From NCBI GenBank assembly GCA_963737905.1, contig CAVTUQ010000028.1, positions 1-64,000 on the forward strand: a stretch of 64,000 nt of DNA. Reading direction: 5' to 3'. Of the stretch, positions 42,369-47,677 are shown piece after piece. The notes under the pieces are model-generated. The model was given only the letters and a program-made list of their open reading frames with translations. It did no database searches and was not told where the DNA came from. Position 1 is the stretch's first letter. Each line of letters begins with the position of its first letter. Both the position numbers and the translations under genes were made by a program. The DNA is from an uncultured delta proteobacterium. GTDB lineage: Bacteria; Desulfobacterota; Binatia; UBA9968.

Positions 42369-43319
42369 TTAGGAGTCGTTGGTCGAGTAATAGTAATACT
42401 TTGAAGAGATGCCGAGGTCCGCTCCGTTCAACACGACGCCCATAACTTTGTTGGAATTTAGAGACTGCAGCGCTTTCGTCAAATAATCACGGGGCGTTTT
42501 GCCCGCTCGCATCACCAACAAAACCCCATCGACATAACGGGCGATCACCAACGGGTCAGGCGTCGATAGTATCGGAGGGCTATCGATAATGATGTGATAG
42601 CCAGGGAACTCGGCCTGAGCTTCTTCCATGACCTGCCTCATTCTTTCTTTAGCTAAAAGTTCGGACGCGAGGCGCGATGGTTTCCCTGAAGGCAAAATGC
42701 TTAACCCCGGGACAAAGGTCTCCTGTACCATATCCTTGAGCTTCATTTTCGAGTTGGCGGCAAGATAATCGGCGAGTCCCGGTGATGCGAGCACATTAAA
42801 ATATCGATGGATACTCGGAGCCCGAAGGTCACCATCGATAAGAAGAACCTTCTCCTCATAATCCAAGGATAGGGCGGCTGCCAAATTGACGGCGACGGTT
42901 GTCTTGCCATCTCTCTTAATTGGGCTGCTTACGGAAAAACTCCTAATCCCGGATTCGGCACGCAATCGTTTGACTTGCTCGCGCAGCATTTTATATTGTT
43001 CCGACGCTGGAGATTCCGTTTCTAAAGCGACGATCGGATAACTGCTATAGCGTTGCAGGTTCCATCCAAGAAGCCACTGTTCAATTCTCTCGTGCCACGA
43101 TTTGTCAGTGTTCGTGACCGCCGGATATAATTCATGAGTGTCACGGAAGGCACCGTTGGTCTTACTGATCGTACCGTTTGAGTATGGTTCGCGGGTTGAT
43201 CCTTTTTCTTCGATGAGCATCTCCCCAGTGACATTGCTTTCGACCTTTTCCATCGGCCGTTGGACCTGCCCGTGCTTTTCTTCACCCGCTCTTGCCAATG
43301 CTTCGAACACTCTACTCAT
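42369..43319 (-). CDS. CpsD/CapB-type tyrosine autokinase (cytoplasmic half of Wzc)
   Basis: EQYKMLR, DGKTT, LLIDGDLR, IIIDSPP, C-terminal Tyr cluster KYYYYS. Confidence 0.92.
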   Translation of the reverse strand: MSRVFEALARAGEEKHGQVQRPMEKVESNVTGEMLIEEKGSTREPYSNGTISKTNGAFRDTHELYPAVTNTDKSWHERIEQWLLGWNLQRYSSYPIVALETESPASEQYKMLREQVKRLRAESGIRSFSVSSPIKRDGKTTVAVNLAAALSLDYEEKVLLIDGDLRAPSIHRYFNVLASPGLADYLAANSKMKLKDMVQETFVPGLSILPSGKPSRLASELLAKERMRQVMEEAQAEFPGYHIIIDSPPILSTPDPLVIARYVDGVLLVMRAGKTPRDYLTKALQSLNSNKVMGVVLNGADLGISSKYYYYSTNDS

Positions 43320-43358
43320 GCTTTAATCACTCCTAAAAAAGGCGCTGAAACTTTGTTT

Positions 43359-43448
43359 GTCTGCTTAAAAAGATCTCAGAGGCGAGGCGCATCAAAACTC
43401 GATGAACGGAGGCGTGCTTAACCGATACGTTGTAGCGAGGCGATTGAG
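43359..43448. repeat. Left part of a palindromic REP-like repeat interrupted by the IS110 element
   Basis: CTGCTTAAAAAGATCTCA is an imperfect inverted repeat of TGAGTCTCTTTCAGCA on the far side of the IS; the rejoined site matches 52902-52920 at 18/19. Confidence 0.7.
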
Positions 43449-43529
43449 ACTTGTATGATGGATGTCGGTCCTCACGCGAGTGCTCTGGTACAATGGTTCA
43501 AATAATAGCGTTGTCGAAGAGGCACTTAG

Positions 43530-44676
43530 ATGAGAGACAAGACGTTTATAAGGATTATGGTGTGTTTGCGGATTGGATGTAGATAAGAAGAGTATCGCGG
43601 AACGTTTACAGTCAGCAAGGATTCATCGGTGTTGCAAATGCGTATGGAGTGGATCATTTGCTGAATCATGTGCGCAAGCACTTTGCGGATCAGAAGATTG
43701 CTTTGTCTATGAGGCTGGACCCACGGGGTACGGGTTGTATGATGGGCTTGCGGCTGAAGGTTATAGGTGCTTGATCGCCGCTCCATCGATGATTCCAGAG
43801 CTCCAGGACAGAGAGTGAAAACCAATCGACTCGACAGTCGAGCGTTGTCGGAGAGTTTGCGTGGGGGACAGCTCAAAAGCATTCATGTTCCCTCCCAATT
43901 TATCGCGAGCTTCGCCACCTCACTCAACTGCGCGACACGACGGTACGCCAGGCGGCCGCTCACAAGCAGCGCATCAAAGCCCTGTTGTTGCTCGAAGGCA
44001 TCGACTTTCCCCCAGCTCCTGCTGGCAGACAGTGGACATTGAGGGTGAAGGCTCAGTTGAGAAAGCTTCAGTGTTCTCATACGTGCGTTTTAAGCTCGAT
44101 CAGTTGCTCGACAATTTGGAATTTTGTGAAAAGCAGGTGGTGAGCAGTACGAAAGAGATTCGCCGCTTTTGTAAAGAGGATGCGGAACTGTTGCAGTCCA
44201 TTGAGTACCTGATGAGCATCTCGGGTATCGGCTGGATTGTGGCGAGCCAGCTTCTGGCGCGCATTGGAGACTGGCGGCAAATCGACAATGTCCGACAACT
44301 GGGTAGCTTTCTGGGTTTGGTGCCTACCGAGAACTCCACGGGTGATACGGTCGATCGAGGATCGATTACCCGTGTGGGAGACGGCCGGCTTCGAAGCAAG
44401 ATGATTCAGGCGGCATGGTCGGCGATCCGCCAAGACGCAGAGCTTAGAGAGTTTTATCGTTCGGTTTGCCAGAGAAACCCACGCGGCAAAGGCCCGCGGA
44501 TCGCGATCGTGGCGGTGGCGCGAAAACTGAGTACACGGGTTTATGCGGTATTGAAACATCAAAGACCGTACATCGTTCGAGAACAGGTTCATTCGGCTCC
44601 TTTGACCCAAGAGGAGACATCGCCCCAGGGAACGACTCGACGTTGCGCAGAACCGGGAGAGATTAACAACTCCTGA
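43530..44676 (+). pseudogene. IS110-family DEDD transposase/recombinase, multiply frameshifted
   Basis: Fragments in different frames: LDVDKKSI, YEAGPTGYGL, RVKTNRLDS, SISGIG..A, LGLVPTENSTG, AIVAVARKL. Confidence 0.9.
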
Positions 44677-44798
44677 AGGTTCGCGATTTGAGACAGAGAA
44701 CCCGGGGCCTTGTGCCTTAGAGAGGGCGTATTGCAAAAAAGTGTGACGGCCTGGGTGCTGTGCCACGTATAGCAGCAAGTGTCTCTTTGGTCGGGGAG
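44597..44798 (+). ncRNA. Putative bridge/seek RNA of the IS110/IS1111 element
   Basis: Closing stem 44597-620/44779-798, GCCCCAGGG/CCCGGGGC stem, and an internal loop with CGTTGCGC (reverse complement of right target flank) and GCGATT (same as left target flank). Confidence 0.65.
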
Positions 44799-44852
44799 TA
44801 AAAGAGTATAAGAAAAAGAGGACTCGTATGTTTGCGACTTGACATCCACATA

Positions 44853-44894
44853 AGCGCAACGAAGCATATGAGTCTCTTTCAGCATCCTGTTAGT
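44853..44894. repeat. Right part of the interrupted palindromic repeat
   Basis: AGCGCAACGAAGCATATGAGTCTCTTTCAGCATCCTGTTAG continues the left part across the AG core. Confidence 0.7.
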
Positions 44895-46133
44895 TTAGGA
44901 GGCTTGCAGTGTCCTGATTTCTTCAAGCATCTGGTGCCGGAAATACGCACGCATTCCTTCGTCTAAGATCTCGCGGCTTACCGATTCAAGAAGCATATCG
45001 ACCTTTGCGTGCGGGAACCGCTCAAAGGATTCGCCCAGGGTTTTGATTTGATCGCGCAGCACGATCTTGGCCATCGGACCCATAGCGTCTGTGAGAGCTA
45101 CAGCCAAAGCATTTAAGAAACTGGCTGGTACAAACACTGTGGAAGGAATAGTCCTGGGAACCGGTTTCGCGTTGGGCGGTTTTGGCTCTAACCGCGCTAT
45201 CCCTGGTCGGGCTTCTGCTGCTGATGCCACGCTAGATCCCTGCACCGCGCCAACACCTTTCGGGTTGTTAATGACTTGGCGAATCGGCCTCAGGCGCATC
45301 TCGACGTTGCTTGTTATATTCAGATCCTCTGCCACTTCCCGTATGATCCCGGTGTCAATTTCCTTCTTCCCTAACGCATAACCCGTCAGCAATGCGTTGT
45401 CGCACAGCACGTTCACGATGCGGGGGATTCCATTGGAATAGGAGTGAATACTTTCTAAGGCGTTGGGCGTAAAAATAGGTCGGTCTCCACCAGCAACCTT
45501 TAGGCGACTGGACACGTACTCACAGCACTCCGGTAGCGATAAAGTCCGTAAATGATGACGCAACATCACTCGTTGTTTGAGTTGGCGCAATTCAGGCGAG
45601 TTAAGACGTACCGCTAACTCAGGCTGCCCAACCAATAGTATTTGCAACAGCTTATCCTTGGAAGTCTCAAAGTTAGATAATAGCCGGATACTTTCTAAAA
45701 CCTCGGCCGAAAGGTTCTGTGACTCATCGATAATGAGCGCGCAATTCTCCCCTTTTCGATAACTTTCAAGAAGAAATTCATTTAAAGAAACTAGGTAATC
45801 ATGGATCTCTAAAGGAGGGCGTTTCGGTTCTATGAGGCCGAACTCTTCACAGACGGACCGAAGCAGGTCCGCAGGGCTAACGATGGTGCTAAAGAGAAGC
45901 GCTGTTTGAGCGCTTCCGTTAAGATCGTTCAACAACGCGTGAATCAGCGTGGTTTTCCCTGTTCCCACTTCTCCAGTCAGAACCACAAAACCCTTCCTGG
46001 CTCTAATTCCGTACGAAAGCTGCGCTAACCCCTCGCGGTGACTCGCGCTAAGGTACAGAAAGCTCGGATCAGGCGTGATATTAAAAGGGGCCTGAGTGAG
46101 CCCAAAATGCGTTTGATATAATAGATGATCCAT
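44895..46133 (-). CDS. ExeA-like AAA ATPase, PEP-CTERM/XrtA-system associated (TIGR03015-like)
   Basis: HFGL..PF.ITPDP.FLY, TGEVGTGKTT, IIDESQNL, LLVGQPEL, LRQLKQR, GIPRIVN.LCD. Confidence 0.9.
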   Translation of the reverse strand: MDHLLYQTHFGLTQAPFNITPDPSFLYLSASHREGLAQLSYGIRARKGFVVLTGEVGTGKTTLIHALLNDLNGSAQTALLFSTIVSPADLLRSVCEEFGLIEPKRPPLEIHDYLVSLNEFLLESYRKGENCALIIDESQNLSAEVLESIRLLSNFETSKDKLLQILLVGQPELAVRLNSPELRQLKQRVMLRHHLRTLSLPECCEYVSSRLKVAGGDRPIFTPNALESIHSYSNGIPRIVNVLCDNALLTGYALGKKEIDTGIIREVAEDLNITSNVEMRLRPIRQVINNPKGVGAVQGSSVASAAEARPGIARLEPKPPNAKPVPRTIPSTVFVPASFLNALAVALTDAMGPMAKIVLRDQIKTLGESFERFPHAKVDMLLESVSREILDEGMRAYFRHQMLEEIRTLQAS

Positions 46134-46150
46134 TGGTTTTGCTATCTTTC

Positions 46151-47677
46151 TTAAAAAGAAATGGGACCCAAAATTCGGATACAAATGACTCCGACAGCCA
46201 GTGTTGCGATGGAAGCCAGCACAAGGAGACCATGAGCCCGCCGTTGTTCCAAGACACTGCCCCGCGTTACTAGCGCAGGAATCGTCGCGAGCAAGGGCAC
46301 ATCGACATAGGTATTGATTTCCTCACTCCTTCGAAAAGACGAGTCCATGCTATCCCACAAAATAGCCGACCCAATCCCTCCAGCCAAACCTGCTATAAAT
46401 CCCATCAAAACAATCAAAAGGCGGTTCGGTCGAGTGGGGTTAACTGGGAAATTTGCGGGATCGAGAATCTGGAACTGCTCACCTTTTTGTTTCTTTTCCA
46501 TATTCTCCGCCAGCTCAGATTCAAGACCTTTAGCTAATAAATCCTGATATTTTTTTAGCGTTATGTCGTAGCCGCGGCTAATTTTGGAAAGTTCTAAGGC
46601 ACGAACAGGAGTACTATCAACACGAGCCTGTAGCAGGCTGATCTGACTCCGAATCCCCTCGCTCTGGGCATGAAGAGCTTTGATCTCGGAATCAATGTCT
46701 GTGATTTGCGTCTGCAAAACCCGCTTGACAGGATTAATCTGAGAGACTTTTGACGGATTGGGTTGACTCGAGATTGTATCGTAGCTGTCATTTTCTAGTG
46801 CTTGGATTTCCTTCTTCGCTCTAATCACATCCGGATGCTTGTTGCTATATCTTTGCAGCAGGGACTCTAGTTCCTTTTTCTTCATTTCAAGCTGAACACT
46901 TTGGGGCACGGTATTTACAGCAATGGAGAGCGGACCACCGGTCGAATCTAACTTCACAATGTCGGCTTCTACGTTTTGTTTTTGCAGGACAGCTCGACGT
47001 TCCTGAAGGGCCGATAGCCGCTGGCTATTGCCCTCCAGCGCACGTCGAAGTTGCTCCAAACTCCGCAGGTTTGTATCAAGTTGATCCGGTAACTCGTAAC
47101 CATGAGCGGCCTTGTATCTTGTTACCACCGCCTCTTGCGCTTCCAATTCCTTTCGCAGCCTCTCAGTCTCCGCATTGATGAAAGACTTGGTTCCCTGTGC
47201 CTGCTGTTCCCTGGCGTTTAGATTTTGTTCGATAAATAACGATCCGAGCCGACTTGTCACCTGCTTCGCCTTTTCAGGGTCTTCAGATTCGAACGATAAC
47301 TGAAATACATTGTTTCGGCGGGACTCGATCCGGATGGATTTGCGCAGGAGATTGATTCGAGCTTCTAAAGTAACTACCTTTTGATAGAGATTAAACTCTT
47401 GAATGATTTTTTCCAGTTGAGTTCTGCTCATTATCTCCTGAGTAATGGACTGCATGCGTTCGCGAAGATCAATGGTTACTGTGGAAGCGACAAAAGAGGT
47501 GGGCACGCGCTGCGGGGTAACAAGGATAAGTGCACTTGACTGATAGACGTTCGGCAGGACGCTTGCCAGATATCCGGCTAACGATGATACTACAACGAAG
47601 ACGGATATGATCAATCCTTTCCTTCGATTAAGGGTATTTAGTATTTTGGAAATATCAAAATCCGCAACTACGTTCAT
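46151..47677 (-). CDS. Polysaccharide chain-length determinant/co-polymerase (GumC/Wzz, TIGR03007-like)
   Basis: N-terminal TM, YQSSALILV, long coiled coil, Y..KHPDVI, FQILDPA..P..P..PNR, C-terminal TM. Confidence 0.9.
   Translation of the reverse strand: MNVVADFDISKILNTLNRRKGLIISVFVVVSSLAGYLASVLPNVYQSSALILVTPQRVPTSFVASTVTIDLRERMQSITQEIMSRTQLEKIIQEFNLYQKVVTLEARINLLRKSIRIESRRNNVFQLSFESEDPEKAKQVTSRLGSLFIEQNLNAREQQAQGTKSFINAETERLRKELEAQEAVVTRYKAAHGYELPDQLDTNLRSLEQLRRALEGNSQRLSALQERRAVLQKQNVEADIVKLDSTGGPLSIAVNTVPQSVQLEMKKKELESLLQRYSNKHPDVIRAKKEIQALENDSYDTISSQPNPSKVSQINPVKRVLQTQITDIDSEIKALHAQSEGIRSQISLLQARVDSTPVRALELSKISRGYDITLKKYQDLLAKGLESELAENMEKKQKGEQFQILDPANFPVNPTRPNRLLIVLMGFIAGLAGGIGSAILWDSMDSSFRRSEEINTYVDVPLLATIPALVTRGSVLEQRRAHGLLVLASIATLAVGVICIRILGPISF

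What the first reader, a model, noticed from the sequence alone, without database searches (positions are those of the whole stretch)
44597..44798. Readable RNA guide: bridge/seek-RNA-like structure whose loop matches both flanks of the element's own target
Seen: the 3' ~200 nt of the IS110 folds into nested stems (44597-620 with 44779-798; GCCCCAGGG 44622-30 with CCCGGGGC 44701-08). Inside is an internal loop: CTCGA [CGTTGCGCA] GAACC-GGAG..CTCC-GGTTC [GCGAT] TTGAG. CGTTGCGC (44641-48) is the exact reverse complement of the right target flank GCGCAACG (44854-61), and GCGATT (44683-88) equals the left flank (43440-45). A second loop (44731-78) carries AAGT, complementary to the IS left end ACTT, a weaker donor-guide candidate. 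The RNA overlaps the last ~25 codons of the transposase. Known: IS110/IS1111 recombinases use bridge/seek RNAs, encoded downstream in IS1111-type elements. Inference: a programmable recombinase/guide pair aimed at a genomic repeat family, with the right-flank guide placed before the left-flank guide.
Basis: partly seen in the sequence, partly recalled or inferred. Interest (0 to 1): 0.85.

Follow-up and report, generated by a model that had tools for sequence, protein, structure and literature searches.

The report
Fossil IS1111 element with guide RNA
This is a decayed insertion sequence of a known RNA-guided kind (IS1111 group of the IS110 family), and its 3' end still encodes a guide RNA whose loop spells out both sides of the site it inserted into; the reading is right, but the mechanism is already published.

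Summary
Window 43449-44852 is a single-copy IS110-family element of the IS1111 type, inserted at an AG core dinucleotide in a REP-like repeat. Empty copies of that repeat recur in the same genome.

CGTTGCGC (44641-48) is complementary to core-G plus the right flank. GCGAT-T-TGAG (44683-92) equals the left flank plus core, with one extra T.

Relatives settle the question. Across 86 related copies counted (6 genome loci, 80 soil or sediment metagenome loci), the RNA scaffold is nearly invariant while the loop segments change with the flanks:
- 5' guide, 31 distinct guides: 216 of 248 positions match the cognate flank, against 138 ± 6.5 when permuted (0 of 20,000).
- 3' guide, 24 distinct guides: 158 of 216, against 119 ± 5.4 (0 of 20,000).

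"Right-flank guide first" is the published IS1111 seekRNA order (Siddiquee 2024), so this is a new member of a known kind.

The window copy is dead. Its transposase has nine out-of-frame deletions and its right end lacks 2 nt.

Extras: a handshake-like base beside the donor guide tracks the target, the 5' guide lies inside the transposase reading frame, and the family has Asn at the third DEDD position.

The parts
43380..43448 (+). Left half of the REP-like target repeat, ending in left target GCGATTG (43440-46) and core AG (43447-48)
   Evidence: The flank recurs next to the right flank at empty sites in the same genome. The 16-mer empty site is found 5 times exactly.
43449..44852 (+). IS1111-type insertion sequence (IS110 family), single copy in this genome assembly, decayed
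   Evidence: Boundaries come from empty sites with a 2-nt overlap. They agree with the ends of relatives.
43449..43458 (+). Left terminal extension ACTTGTATGA (the donor sequence right of the core in the circle junction). It contains TATGAT (43454-59), the -10-like half of the predicted junction promoter.
   Evidence: It is the commonest LE form among the relatives where the left end was found.
43459..43466 (+). Left subterminal inverted repeat TGGATGTC
   Evidence: 8-bp inverted match to 44841-48.
43530..44676 (+). Transposase pseudogene (DEDD/RuvC-like domain plus Tnp domain)
   Evidence: Split over several frames. Only the C-terminal piece hits Pfam: PF02371 at 3.8e-23. It has 9 deletions of 4, 1, 2, 2, 1, 1, 1, 1 and 1 nt compared with intact relatives.
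44597..44798 (+). seekRNA / bridge-RNA gene (predicted extent). Its first ~80 nt overlap the last ~26 codons of the transposase frame.
   Evidence: Folds. The scaffold is nearly invariant in 58 non-redundant relatives.
44607..44618 (+). Outer stem P1, 5' strand; it pairs with 44781-44790
   Evidence: One pair is broken in the window copy (G-G).
44622..44630 (+). Stem P2, 5' strand GCCCCAGGG; it pairs with CCCGGGGC at 44701-08
44641..44648 (+). 5' target guide CGTTGCGC, complementary to the + strand of core-G plus right flank (44854-61)
   Evidence: Covaries with the right flank over 31 distinct guides.
44650..44682 (+). Hairpin closing the target loop (GAACC/GGTTC stem and GGGAG/CUCC apical stem). 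The stop codon TGA lies at 44674-76.
44683..44694 (+). 3' target guide GCGAT-T-TGAG (same sequence as left flank plus core, so it would pair with the - strand), followed by AC, the first 2 nt of the IS left end (handshake-like)
   Evidence: two changes mirrored in L026. Family statistics.
44733..44743 (+). Candidate donor guide for the left end (GCAAAAAAGTG; AAGT is complementary to ACTT). Unresolved.
   Evidence: Relatives read CAAGTC in 16 of 76 loci and CAAGT in 25 of 76. An AAGT at the hairpin edge occurs in 43 of 76.
44741..44766 (+). Predicted hairpin between the two donor-guide segments
   Evidence: Read from the sequence and alignment A2. The tools give alternative pairings here, so this is an inference.
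44769..44777 (+). Donor guide ATAGCAG (equals consensus right end ATAGC plus core AG), followed by 2 nt (CA) whose first base tracks the first base of the right flank
   Evidence: ATAGCAG occurs in 59 of 74 loci and RE ...CACATAGC in 73 of 74. The next two bases covary with the flank.
44839..44848 (+). TTGACA (-35-like half of the junction promoter, 44839-44) overlapping the right subterminal inverted repeat GACATCCA (44841-48)
44853..44895 (+). Right half of the target repeat: core AG (44853-54), right target CGCAACG (44855-61), and the remainder of the repeat

Best explanation
Window 43449-44852 is a dead copy of an IS1111-group insertion sequence of the IS110 family.

How active relatives are inferred to work:
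- The element excises as a circle. Joining the ends creates a promoter (TTGACA, 17 nt, TATGAT).
- The DEDD/Ser-type recombinase binds a ~200-nt RNA made from the 3' end of the element.
- One internal loop of that RNA reads the target on both strands. Its 5' segment pairs with the + strand of core-G plus 7-8 nt of right flank. Its 3' segment pairs with the - strand of left flank plus core.
- A second, multi-branched region reads the joined IS ends. ATAGCAG matches the right end plus core, and an AAGT/CAAGTC segment is the candidate for the left end.
- Recombination at the shared AG dinucleotide (CT on the other strand) inserts the element without a target duplication.
- Each bottom-strand guide runs on by 1-2 nt into the sequence it will adjoin after exchange, like the handshake guides of IS621.

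What is shown and what is inferred:
- Shown here: the anatomy, the exact insertion point, the loop/flank matches, and their covariation across relatives.
- Inferred from published work on ISEc11, ISPa11, ISKpn4 and IS621: that the guide acts as RNA bound to the transposase.

In this genome the copy is a relic. The guides are still perfect, but the recombinase is frameshifted and the right end is 2 nt short.
For: Transposase family:
- The window's C-terminal fragment hits PF02371 at 3.8e-23.
- Intact relatives hit PF01548 and PF02371, and NCBIfam NF033542 'IS110 family RNA-guided transposase' at 226 bits against a cut-off of 140.

Boundaries and target:
- In the own genome, 24 DNA matches were found: 1 full-length (the element itself) and 23 flank-only. 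Left and right flanks abut with a 2-nt overlap at several loci.
- The empty-site 16-mer occurs 5 times exactly. Of the 8 one-mismatch hits, 6 are in repeat context.

IS1111 features:
- An 8-bp subterminal inverted repeat.
- The RNA lies downstream of the transposase gene.
- A predicted junction promoter, TTGACA-17 nt-TATGAT, in the consensus.

Natural retargeting:
- L026 has left flank GCGGTCGAG and loop GCGGT-T-CGAG. The window has GCGATTGAG and GCGAT-T-TGAG.
- 5' guide against right flank in 73 loci: 37 match 8 of 8, 20 match 7 of 8, 10 match 6, 3 match 5, 2 match 4, and 1 matches 3. With one representative for each of 31 distinct guides: 216 of 248, against 138.0 ± 6.5 permuted (0 of 20,000).
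- 3' guide against left flank in 57 loci, 24 distinct guides: 158 of 216, against 119.0 ± 5.4 (0 of 20,000). Over the variable 5 nt alone: 64 of 120, against 37.7 ± 5.0.
- The two bases after ATAGCAG against the first two bases of the right flank, in 49 unique combinations: 62 of 98, against 41.3 ± 3.3 (0 of 20,000).

Published mechanism and order of guides: PMC11187229 (abstract; sections 6, 9, 12, 13), PMC11208160 (section 12), PMC11208158 (handshake passages).
Against: - No direct evidence that this RNA is made, processed or bound.
- Rfam has no family for it: the only hit in 43000-45300 is an unrelated, weak one.
- The fold is only modestly better than shuffles (z = -1.86).
- The stems are almost invariant in relatives, so they neither support nor contradict the structure: 4 of 42 pairs show a compensatory change.
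- No sigma-70-like promoter was found in front of the RNA.
- Some copies do not match their own site. L038 matches 4 of 8 at the right flank, and L104 also matches 4 of 8. L028's 3' guide matches its left flank at 5 of 9 positions, which is the constant TGAG plus one of the five variable bases, and that flank is itself unusual.
- The 3' guide matches less well than the 5' guide. Per-position agreement is 0.19-0.69 at positions -9 to -5.
- The left-end donor guide is not resolved.
- The family has Asn where IS621-type enzymes have the third catalytic Asp.
Confidence: 0.9

Rival explanations
1. The guide acts as DNA, not RNA. In this reading the conserved 3' segment of the element, single-stranded in the excised circle or during replication, pairs with the target, or it is a protein-binding site that mimics the target.
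For: Sequence covariation cannot distinguish an RNA guide from a DNA guide of the same sequence. No promoter was found just upstream of the segment.
Against: For four IS1111-type elements and one IS110-type element, the equivalent region was shown to give an RNA that co-purifies with the transposase and works in trans (PMC11187229 abstract and section 12). The segment folds into the same loop-and-hairpin layout as those RNAs. Contigs from RNA libraries cover the region in relatives, though this is weak evidence.
Confidence: 0.04
2. The matches in this window are chance, or they are left-over target sequence captured by the element, with no guiding role.
For: From this copy alone, 34 of 5000 shuffles reproduce both matches, and the fold z-score is weak.
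Against: Relatives with 31 different 5' loop segments sit in matching flanks (0 of 20,000 permutations). One segment is in reverse-complement orientation and the other in direct orientation, split around a conserved hairpin. A captured target would not look like that.
Confidence: 0.02
3. The structured 3' region is mainly a regulatory element of the transposase message (a 3' stabiliser, an attenuator, or a separate selfish small-RNA module like Ssr9 of ISPpu9), and target choice is made by the protein.
For: ISPpu9, a REP-targeting IS110-family element, carries a downstream small-RNA gene that was not required for transposition (PMC12288879, abstract only). The RNA here overlaps the end of the reading frame.
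Against: A regulatory element has no reason to change its loop bases in step with both flanks. The RNA is not a separable module here, because it overlaps the transposase frame and lies inside the inverted repeats.
Confidence: 0.03

Closest known systems
IS1111-group seekRNA elements: ISEc11, ISPa11, ISKpn4, ISPst6 (Siddiquee et al. 2024, PMC11187229)
   Same: DEDD transposase with a GL-P----(S/T)G motif. Subterminal inverted repeats with short terminal extensions. Guide RNA encoded downstream of the transposase gene. The segment complementary to the top strand lies 5' of the segment complementary to the bottom strand, and the two overlap at the crossover. No target duplication. Targets are repeated sequences.
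   Different: - The intact transposase is about 386 aa, against the 330-350 aa quoted for the family (section 6).
- The RNA starts inside the reading frame, so the 5' guide is also coding sequence.
- The third DEDD residue is Asn.
- Protein similarity to named elements was not measured here, because no ISfinder copy was at hand.
IS621 bridge RNA (Durrant et al. 2024, PMC11208160; Hiraizumi et al. 2024, PMC11208158)
   Same: Two-part RNA with a target-reading and a donor-reading region. Each part reads both DNA strands around a 2-nt core (CT, which is AG on the strand used here). 1-2 nt extensions match the partner DNA after exchange (handshake guides). A circular intermediate with a junction promoter. 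Read on the CT strand, the order within the target loop (guide for the bottom strand of the left side, hairpin, guide for core plus right side plus handshake) is the same as in IS621.
   Different: - The RNA lies at the 3' end instead of the 5' end of the element, and is transcribed in the opposite sense relative to the CT strand.
- The donor-reading part sits in a multi-branched region, as Durrant noted for many IS1111 elements (section 12).
- The proteins are only distantly related. phmmer matched the C-terminal domain only: E = 7.4e-13 to IS621 (8wt6) and 8.5e-15 to ISCro4 (9t56).
ISPpu9 / ISPpu10 of Pseudomonas putida (PMC12288879, abstract only)
   Same: IS110-family elements inserted in repetitive extragenic palindromes, with a small-RNA gene downstream of the transposase gene.
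   Different: In ISPpu9 the downstream small RNA was dispensable and moves as its own module. Here the RNA overlaps the transposase frame and its loops track the target.

Membership tests
IS110 family (RNA-guided DEDD transposases) | N-terminal DEDD/RuvC-like domain (PF01548) plus C-terminal Tnp domain (PF02371) | tested here: met
   The window copy hits only PF02371 (3.8e-23), because the N-terminal part is frameshifted. Intact relatives L025 and L026 hit both domains. L025 scores 226 bits on NF033542, cut-off 140.
IS110 family (RNA-guided DEDD transposases) | Catalytic D-E-D-D tetrad | tested here: inconclusive
   GLDVDK and (A/V)YEAG are present. The third position reads N (KTNRLDSR) where ISCro4 has KTDAVDAR (alignment). 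It is N in all 42 loci where the motif was found, out of 86 scanned. That these are the catalytic positions is taken from IS621 (D11, E60, D102, D105; PMC11208158) and from one weak local alignment.
IS110 family (RNA-guided DEDD transposases) | Conserved G--P----(S/T)G nucleophile motif | tested here: met
   GLVPTENSTG is in the window frame. GL.P....(S/T)G variants occur in relatives. The motif definition is from PMC11187229 section 6.
IS1111 group | Subterminal inverted repeats of 7-17 bp with short terminal extensions | tested here: met
   TGGATGTC at 43459-66 and GACATCCA at 44841-48 (8 bp). The extensions are 10 nt on the left and 4 nt on the right; the right extension is 6 nt in relatives. 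The length range is from PMC11208160 section 12.
IS1111 group | Longer non-coding end and guide RNA downstream of the transposase gene | tested here: met
   There are 81 nt from the left end to the ATG (43449-43529) and 176 nt after the stop (44677-44852). The structured RNA lies at 44597-44798.
IS1111 group | Site-specific insertion without target duplication, at a dinucleotide shared by the target and the IS ends | tested here: met
   Empty sites show a 2-nt (AG) overlap of the two flanks. The same AG is at both junctions in relatives.
IS1111 group | Circle junction creates a promoter | tested here: inconclusive
   From sequence only. The consensus junction gives TTGACA-17 nt-TATGAT. The window copy would give 15 nt because of the missing GC. 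No circle was observed.
seekRNA / bridge RNA | [quoted passage not shown] | tested here: met
   Segments at 44641-48 and 44683-92 against 44854-61 and 43440-48. Both include the core G.
seekRNA / bridge RNA | Guide segments change with the target in relatives (programmability) | tested here: met
   0 of 20,000 permutations reach the observed match, for either guide.
seekRNA / bridge RNA | Donor-reading segments matching both IS ends | tested here: inconclusive
   Right-end guide: ATAGCAG in 59 of 74 loci, and its next base tracks the target. Left-end guide: only partial and shifting matches. The donor ends hardly vary, so covariation cannot be tested.
seekRNA / bridge RNA | The RNA is produced and binds the transposase | not testable with these tools
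   Contigs from RNA libraries of separate studies cover parts of relatives, including the RNA region (X15 record 5, X17 record 21, X18 record 25). Contigs show no start, end or strand, and DNA carry-over is possible.
seekRNA / bridge RNA | Match to a curated RNA family | tested here: not met
   No Rfam 15 family matched the region at E <= 1. I do not know whether Rfam holds an IS1111 bridge-RNA model, so this says little.

The most novel reading that the evidence does not exclude
This abundant soil IS1111-type family extends the bridge-RNA rules in ways I did not find described for the group.
1. Handshake-like bases: the target 3' guide runs on into AC of the IS left end, and the base after the donor guide ATAGCAG tracks the first base of the right target. 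This points to IS621-style assisted strand exchange in IS1111 elements.
2. The 5' target guide lies inside the transposase reading frame, so retargeting rewrites the C-terminal tail.
3. The recombinase works with Asn in place of the third Asp of DEDD.
4. One nearly invariant scaffold has been retargeted at least 31 times in nature, mostly between variants of REP-like hairpin repeats. That gives a ready-made specificity data set.
Probability: 0.35. Interest if true: 0.5.

Novelty: new member of a known kind. Interest (0 to 1): 0.35.

Why it matters
For this genome it matters little: it is a dead insertion sequence in an intergenic repeat.

For the field, the family around it is a clean natural experiment. 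One conserved RNA scaffold carries dozens of different guide loops, each sitting in a matching site, and this can be read from sequence alone. It independently supports the published seekRNA/bridge-RNA model for the IS1111 group.

It also shows some tolerated features: a register shift of one base, a one-base bulge in the 3' guide, and partial left-side matches. And it points to testable details, namely the handshake-like bases and Asn in the catalytic tetrad. Intact relatives in soil metagenomes could be tried as compact programmable recombinases.

Tried and rejected
Searches that led nowhere:
- Rfam scan of 43000-45300 at E <= 1. The only hit was an unrelated weak one (Ysr283, E 0.68) outside the element.
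- Sigma-70 promoter and terminator scan of 43400-44900. Nothing was found in front of or behind the RNA. The 2 promoter-like and 2 terminator-like sites are at chance level and lie elsewhere.
- 'handshake' in PMC11208160: 0 occurrences.
- IS1111 in PMC13626964: mentioned only in the reference list.

Structure and donor guides:
- Stem covariation in 58 relatives is uninformative because the stems barely vary: 4 of 42 pairs show a compensatory change.
- I looked for covariation between left-end variants (ACCTG, ACTCG, ACTTA) and the candidate left-end donor guide, or the bases after ATAGCAG. I saw no consistent complementarity (tables). I did not test this formally, and the association of 'CC' with ACCTG looks like shared ancestry.

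Targets considered:
- attC sites, which are targets of some IS1111 elements. I rejected this by eye: the hairpin repeats lack the core motifs I recall for attC. This rests on recall and was not tested.

Sequencing runs:
- 20 of the 24 listed runs hold part of the stretch, and 6 of those are RNA libraries with small shares.
- I laid four RNA runs at 85% likeness. The contigs cover parts of relatives and of empty repeats. They show no starts, ends or strand, and parts without cover prove nothing. I draw no habitat or expression level from them.

Rows dropped before counts:
- L029 and L030 (unpublished genomes G012 and G006) were left out of all counts.
- L027 was dropped as identical to L026 over the element.
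- L032 was left out of alignment A2 because its RNA is truncated.
- Loci whose contig ends before a flank drop out of the respective count. This is why n is 73, 57 and 72 loci out of 86.
The sample is therefore neither complete nor random.
- The pattern used for that scan fixes the scaffold, so relatives with a different scaffold were not sampled.

Supplementary files of the papers were not opened. The supplementary logos and folds of PMC11187229 may bear on the Asn position and on donor matches.
Full report
**What is at the coordinates.**
Between 43530 and 44676 lies a transposase gene broken over several frames. Only its C-terminal piece is recognisable to Pfam: PF02371, 3.8e-23.

Two close relatives were found in public genomes: L025, at 94% amino-acid identity over the matched part, and L026, at 84%. 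Their frames are open or nearly so. They hit both PF01548 (DEDD_Tnp_IS110) and PF02371. L025 also hits NCBIfam NF033542, 'IS110 family RNA-guided transposase', at 226 bits against a cut-off of 140.

Aligned to these relatives, the window copy has nine deletions of 4, 1, 2, 2, 1, 1, 1, 1 and 1 nt inside the gene. It is therefore a pseudogene. The neighbouring genes are intact P-loop ATPases, which argues against general sequencing error.

**Boundaries and target.**
A DNA search of the window's own genome assembly (6.7 Mb, 46 contigs, 87% complete) gave 24 matches: the element itself and 23 matches to the flanks alone. At several loci the left and right flanks abut with a 2-nt overlap.

The element is therefore 43449-44852, and the target is GCGATTG-AG-CGCAACG. 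The AG is present at both junctions, and there is no duplication. That 16-mer occurs five times exactly in the genome, always within a repeat of about 100 bp. Six of the eight one-mismatch hits are in the same repeat.

The ends carry an 8-bp subterminal inverted repeat: TGGATGTC at 43459-66 and GACATCCA at 44841-48. The terminal extensions are short. Joining the consensus ends gives TTGACA-17 nt-TATGAT, a junction promoter of the kind described for this family (reference lists seen).

The window copy lacks the GC that precedes the core in 73 of the 74 loci where the right end was found. Its spacer would therefore be 15 nt, and its right end no longer matches the RNA's ATAGCAG.

**The RNA.**
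The energy is only modestly below that of shuffles (z = -1.86; 8 of 200 shuffles fold as well).

The consensus fold of 58 non-redundant relatives gives the same layout:
- an outer stem (44607-18 with 44781-90);
- GCCCCAGGG paired with CCCGGGGC;
- a short CUC/GAG stem;
- an internal loop;
- a GAACC/GGTTC stem with an apical hairpin.

The stems hardly vary, so covariation neither supports nor contradicts them: 4 of 42 pairs show a compensatory change.

The 5' side of the loop is CGTTGCGC, complementary to core-G plus CGCAACG. The 3' side is GCGAT-T-TGAG, which is the left flank plus core with one extra T, followed by AC, the first two bases of the element.

From this copy alone chance is not negligible: 34 of 5000 shuffles give both an 8-mer and a 6-mer match.

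**Relatives decide it.**
L026 sits in a variant of the same repeat. Its left flank is GCGGTCGAG where the window has GCGATTGAG. Its loop reads GCGGT-T-CGAG where the window has GCGAT-T-TGAG. Both changes are mirrored.

A search of 61 related genomes found further copies at 75-92% identity. In these the scaffold is conserved, but the loops and flanks differ. A scan of public metagenome contigs used the scaffold with the loop left free.

For every locus I extracted the loop segments, the IS ends and the flanks. The two loci from unpublished genomes were left out of all counts.

- **5' guide against right flank, 73 loci.** 37 match at 8 of 8 positions, 20 at 7, 10 at 6, 3 at 5, 2 at 4, and 1 at 3. 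With one representative for each of 31 distinct guides, 216 of 248 positions match, against 138.0 ± 6.5 when flanks are permuted. None of 20,000 permutations reached the observed value.
- **Register.** Guides ending in ..GA pair one base further from the core than guides ending in ..CA, so the register is slightly flexible (one search compares both registers).
- **3' guide against left flank, 57 loci, 24 distinct guides.** 158 of 216 positions match, against 119.0 ± 5.4 (0 of 20,000). Over the five variable positions alone, 64 of 120 match, against 37.7 ± 5.0.
- **Left side is looser.** Agreement is 0.19, 0.45, 0.69, 0.57 and 0.69 at positions -9 to -5, and 0.98-1.0 at the last four.
- **Exceptions.** L038 and L104 match their right flank at only 4 of 8 positions. 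L028's 3' guide matches its left flank at 5 of 9, which is the constant TGAG plus one of the five variable bases. That flank consists of partial left-end-like repeats.

**Donor side.**
The RNA contains ATAGCAG (44769-75). This equals the last five bases of the consensus right end plus the core, and it occurs in 59 of 74 loci.

The two bases that follow vary, and they track the first two bases of the right flank: 62 of 98 matches in 49 unique combinations, against 41.3 ± 3.3 (0 of 20,000). Almost all of this signal is in the first base.

The target 3' guide likewise ends in AC. Together these look like the handshake guides described for IS621. There, bases next to the core-pairing part of a guide pair with the partner DNA after strand exchange (PMC11208158, passages read).

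The guide for the left end is not resolved. Relatives read CAAGTC, the complement of core-G plus ACTTG, in 16 of 76 loci. CAAGT occurs in 25 of 76, and an AAGT at the hairpin edge in 43 of 76. The donor ends barely vary, so covariation cannot be used here.

**Comparison with what is known.**
Siddiquee et al. (PMC11187229) report the following, which I read in the abstract and in sections 6, 9, 12 and 13:
- IS1111-type elements carry the longer non-coding region downstream of the transposase gene.
- That region gives a seekRNA that co-purifies with the transposase and is needed for transposition.
- In IS1111-type elements the top-strand match lies 5' of the bottom-strand match, the reverse of IS110-type elements.

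A 2026 review tabulates the same order (PMC13604230). Durrant et al. (PMC11208160, section 12) place the predicted bridge RNA of IS1111 elements in the right end, and note that the donor-binding bases often lie in a multi-loop.

The layout here fits all of this. Read on the strand where the core is CT, the target loop has the same order as in IS621.

The protein is only distantly related to the solved recombinases. phmmer matched the C-terminal domain only: ISCro4 (9t56) at 8.5e-15 and IS621 (8wt6) at 7.4e-13.

**What may be new.**
I searched the paper library for 'handshake' together with 'IS1111' and found 4 papers. The passages I read describe handshake guides for IS621 and IS110 orthologues, not for IS1111-type elements. 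I did not read the four papers in full, and supplements were closed.

The RNA begins inside the reading frame, so the 5' guide is also three to four codons of the C-terminal tail. The tail varies with the guide, and the apical loop varies in length by amounts that are not always multiples of three. The tail is therefore probably not under protein-level constraint.

The family reads KTNRLDSR where ISCro4 reads KTDAVDAR. That is Asn at the third DEDD position. It holds in all 42 loci where the motif was found, out of 86 scanned. Other IS110-family genes in related genomes keep Asp at this position, in the 3 of 8 loci where my pattern matched. The family has clearly been mobile, so Asn seems to be tolerated. 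This rests on one weak local alignment.

**Expression.**
Six RNA libraries hold small parts of the stretch. In the four that I laid, contigs cover parts of related elements, including the RNA region (X15 record 5, X17 record 21, X18 record 25), as well as empty repeats. Contigs cannot show ends or strand, and DNA may be present in such libraries. This is a weak hint only.

**Verdict.**
The element is a new, unnamed member of a known kind, and the copy in this window is a relic. Two loci from unpublished genomes (L029 from G012, L030 from G006) were read and agree in layout. No count or claim here rests on them.

Noticed in passing
window 43380-43448 and 44853-44895; also G000 C13, C26, C38, C4, C9, C19, C21, C3, C34, C45: The target is a ~100-bp REP-like interspersed repeat ending in ...GAGTCTTTTTCAGCAGCCTGCTAG. 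It has at least two different upstream halves. There are 5 exact empty 16-mer sites and 6 one-mismatch sites in repeat context. Most of the one-mismatch sites carry the T>C variant that the loops of L026 and L106 match.
   Followed up: partly
window 43804-43833 (frame of RVKTNRLDSR); L025, L026 and metagenome loci: The third residue of the DEDD tetrad is Asn throughout this IS family (KTN..D where others have KTD..D), although the family has evidently been mobile.
   Followed up: partly
L064, L059, L123, L082 and others: Guides ending in ..GA pair with 8 nt that start after the core, instead of core-G plus 7 nt. This is a one-base register shift within a loop of constant length. It goes with target repeats that have one extra base before ..TCGAAG.
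   Followed up: partly
L028:1310-1370: The left flank of this copy consists of two tandem partial copies of a left-end-like sequence (GAGACAGTGTAT twice). Its 3' guide matches that flank only at the constant TGAG plus one variable base.
   Followed up: no
L073 and L109, right junctions: Extra AGC units lie between the right end and the expected target (AGCAGCAGCGCAAC...), as if the junction had slipped or recombined repeatedly at the GC-AG-C motif.
   Followed up: no
L072 (alignment A2 columns 137-190); L032:2630 onward: L072 carries a ~54-nt insertion in the linker between the target and donor parts of the RNA. The RNA of L032 is cut off just after the 3' guide by unrelated sequence.
   Followed up: no
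window 43300-45000, runs X15-X18: Contigs from metatranscriptome libraries of four separate studies include pieces of related elements, and also uninterrupted copies of the target repeat (joints 43415 or 43446 to 44853).
   Followed up: partly
L038 and L028 (both from genome G021): Two copies in one genome have different 5' guides but the same 3' guide. The guide of L038 fits its own right flank poorly (4 of 8). Mobilisation in trans by another copy's RNA is possible.
   Followed up: no
window 42369-43319 (-) and 44895-46184 (-): The element sits in the intergenic repeat between two intact P-loop ATPase genes: one AAA_31/ParA-like, the other AAA_22.
   Followed up: no
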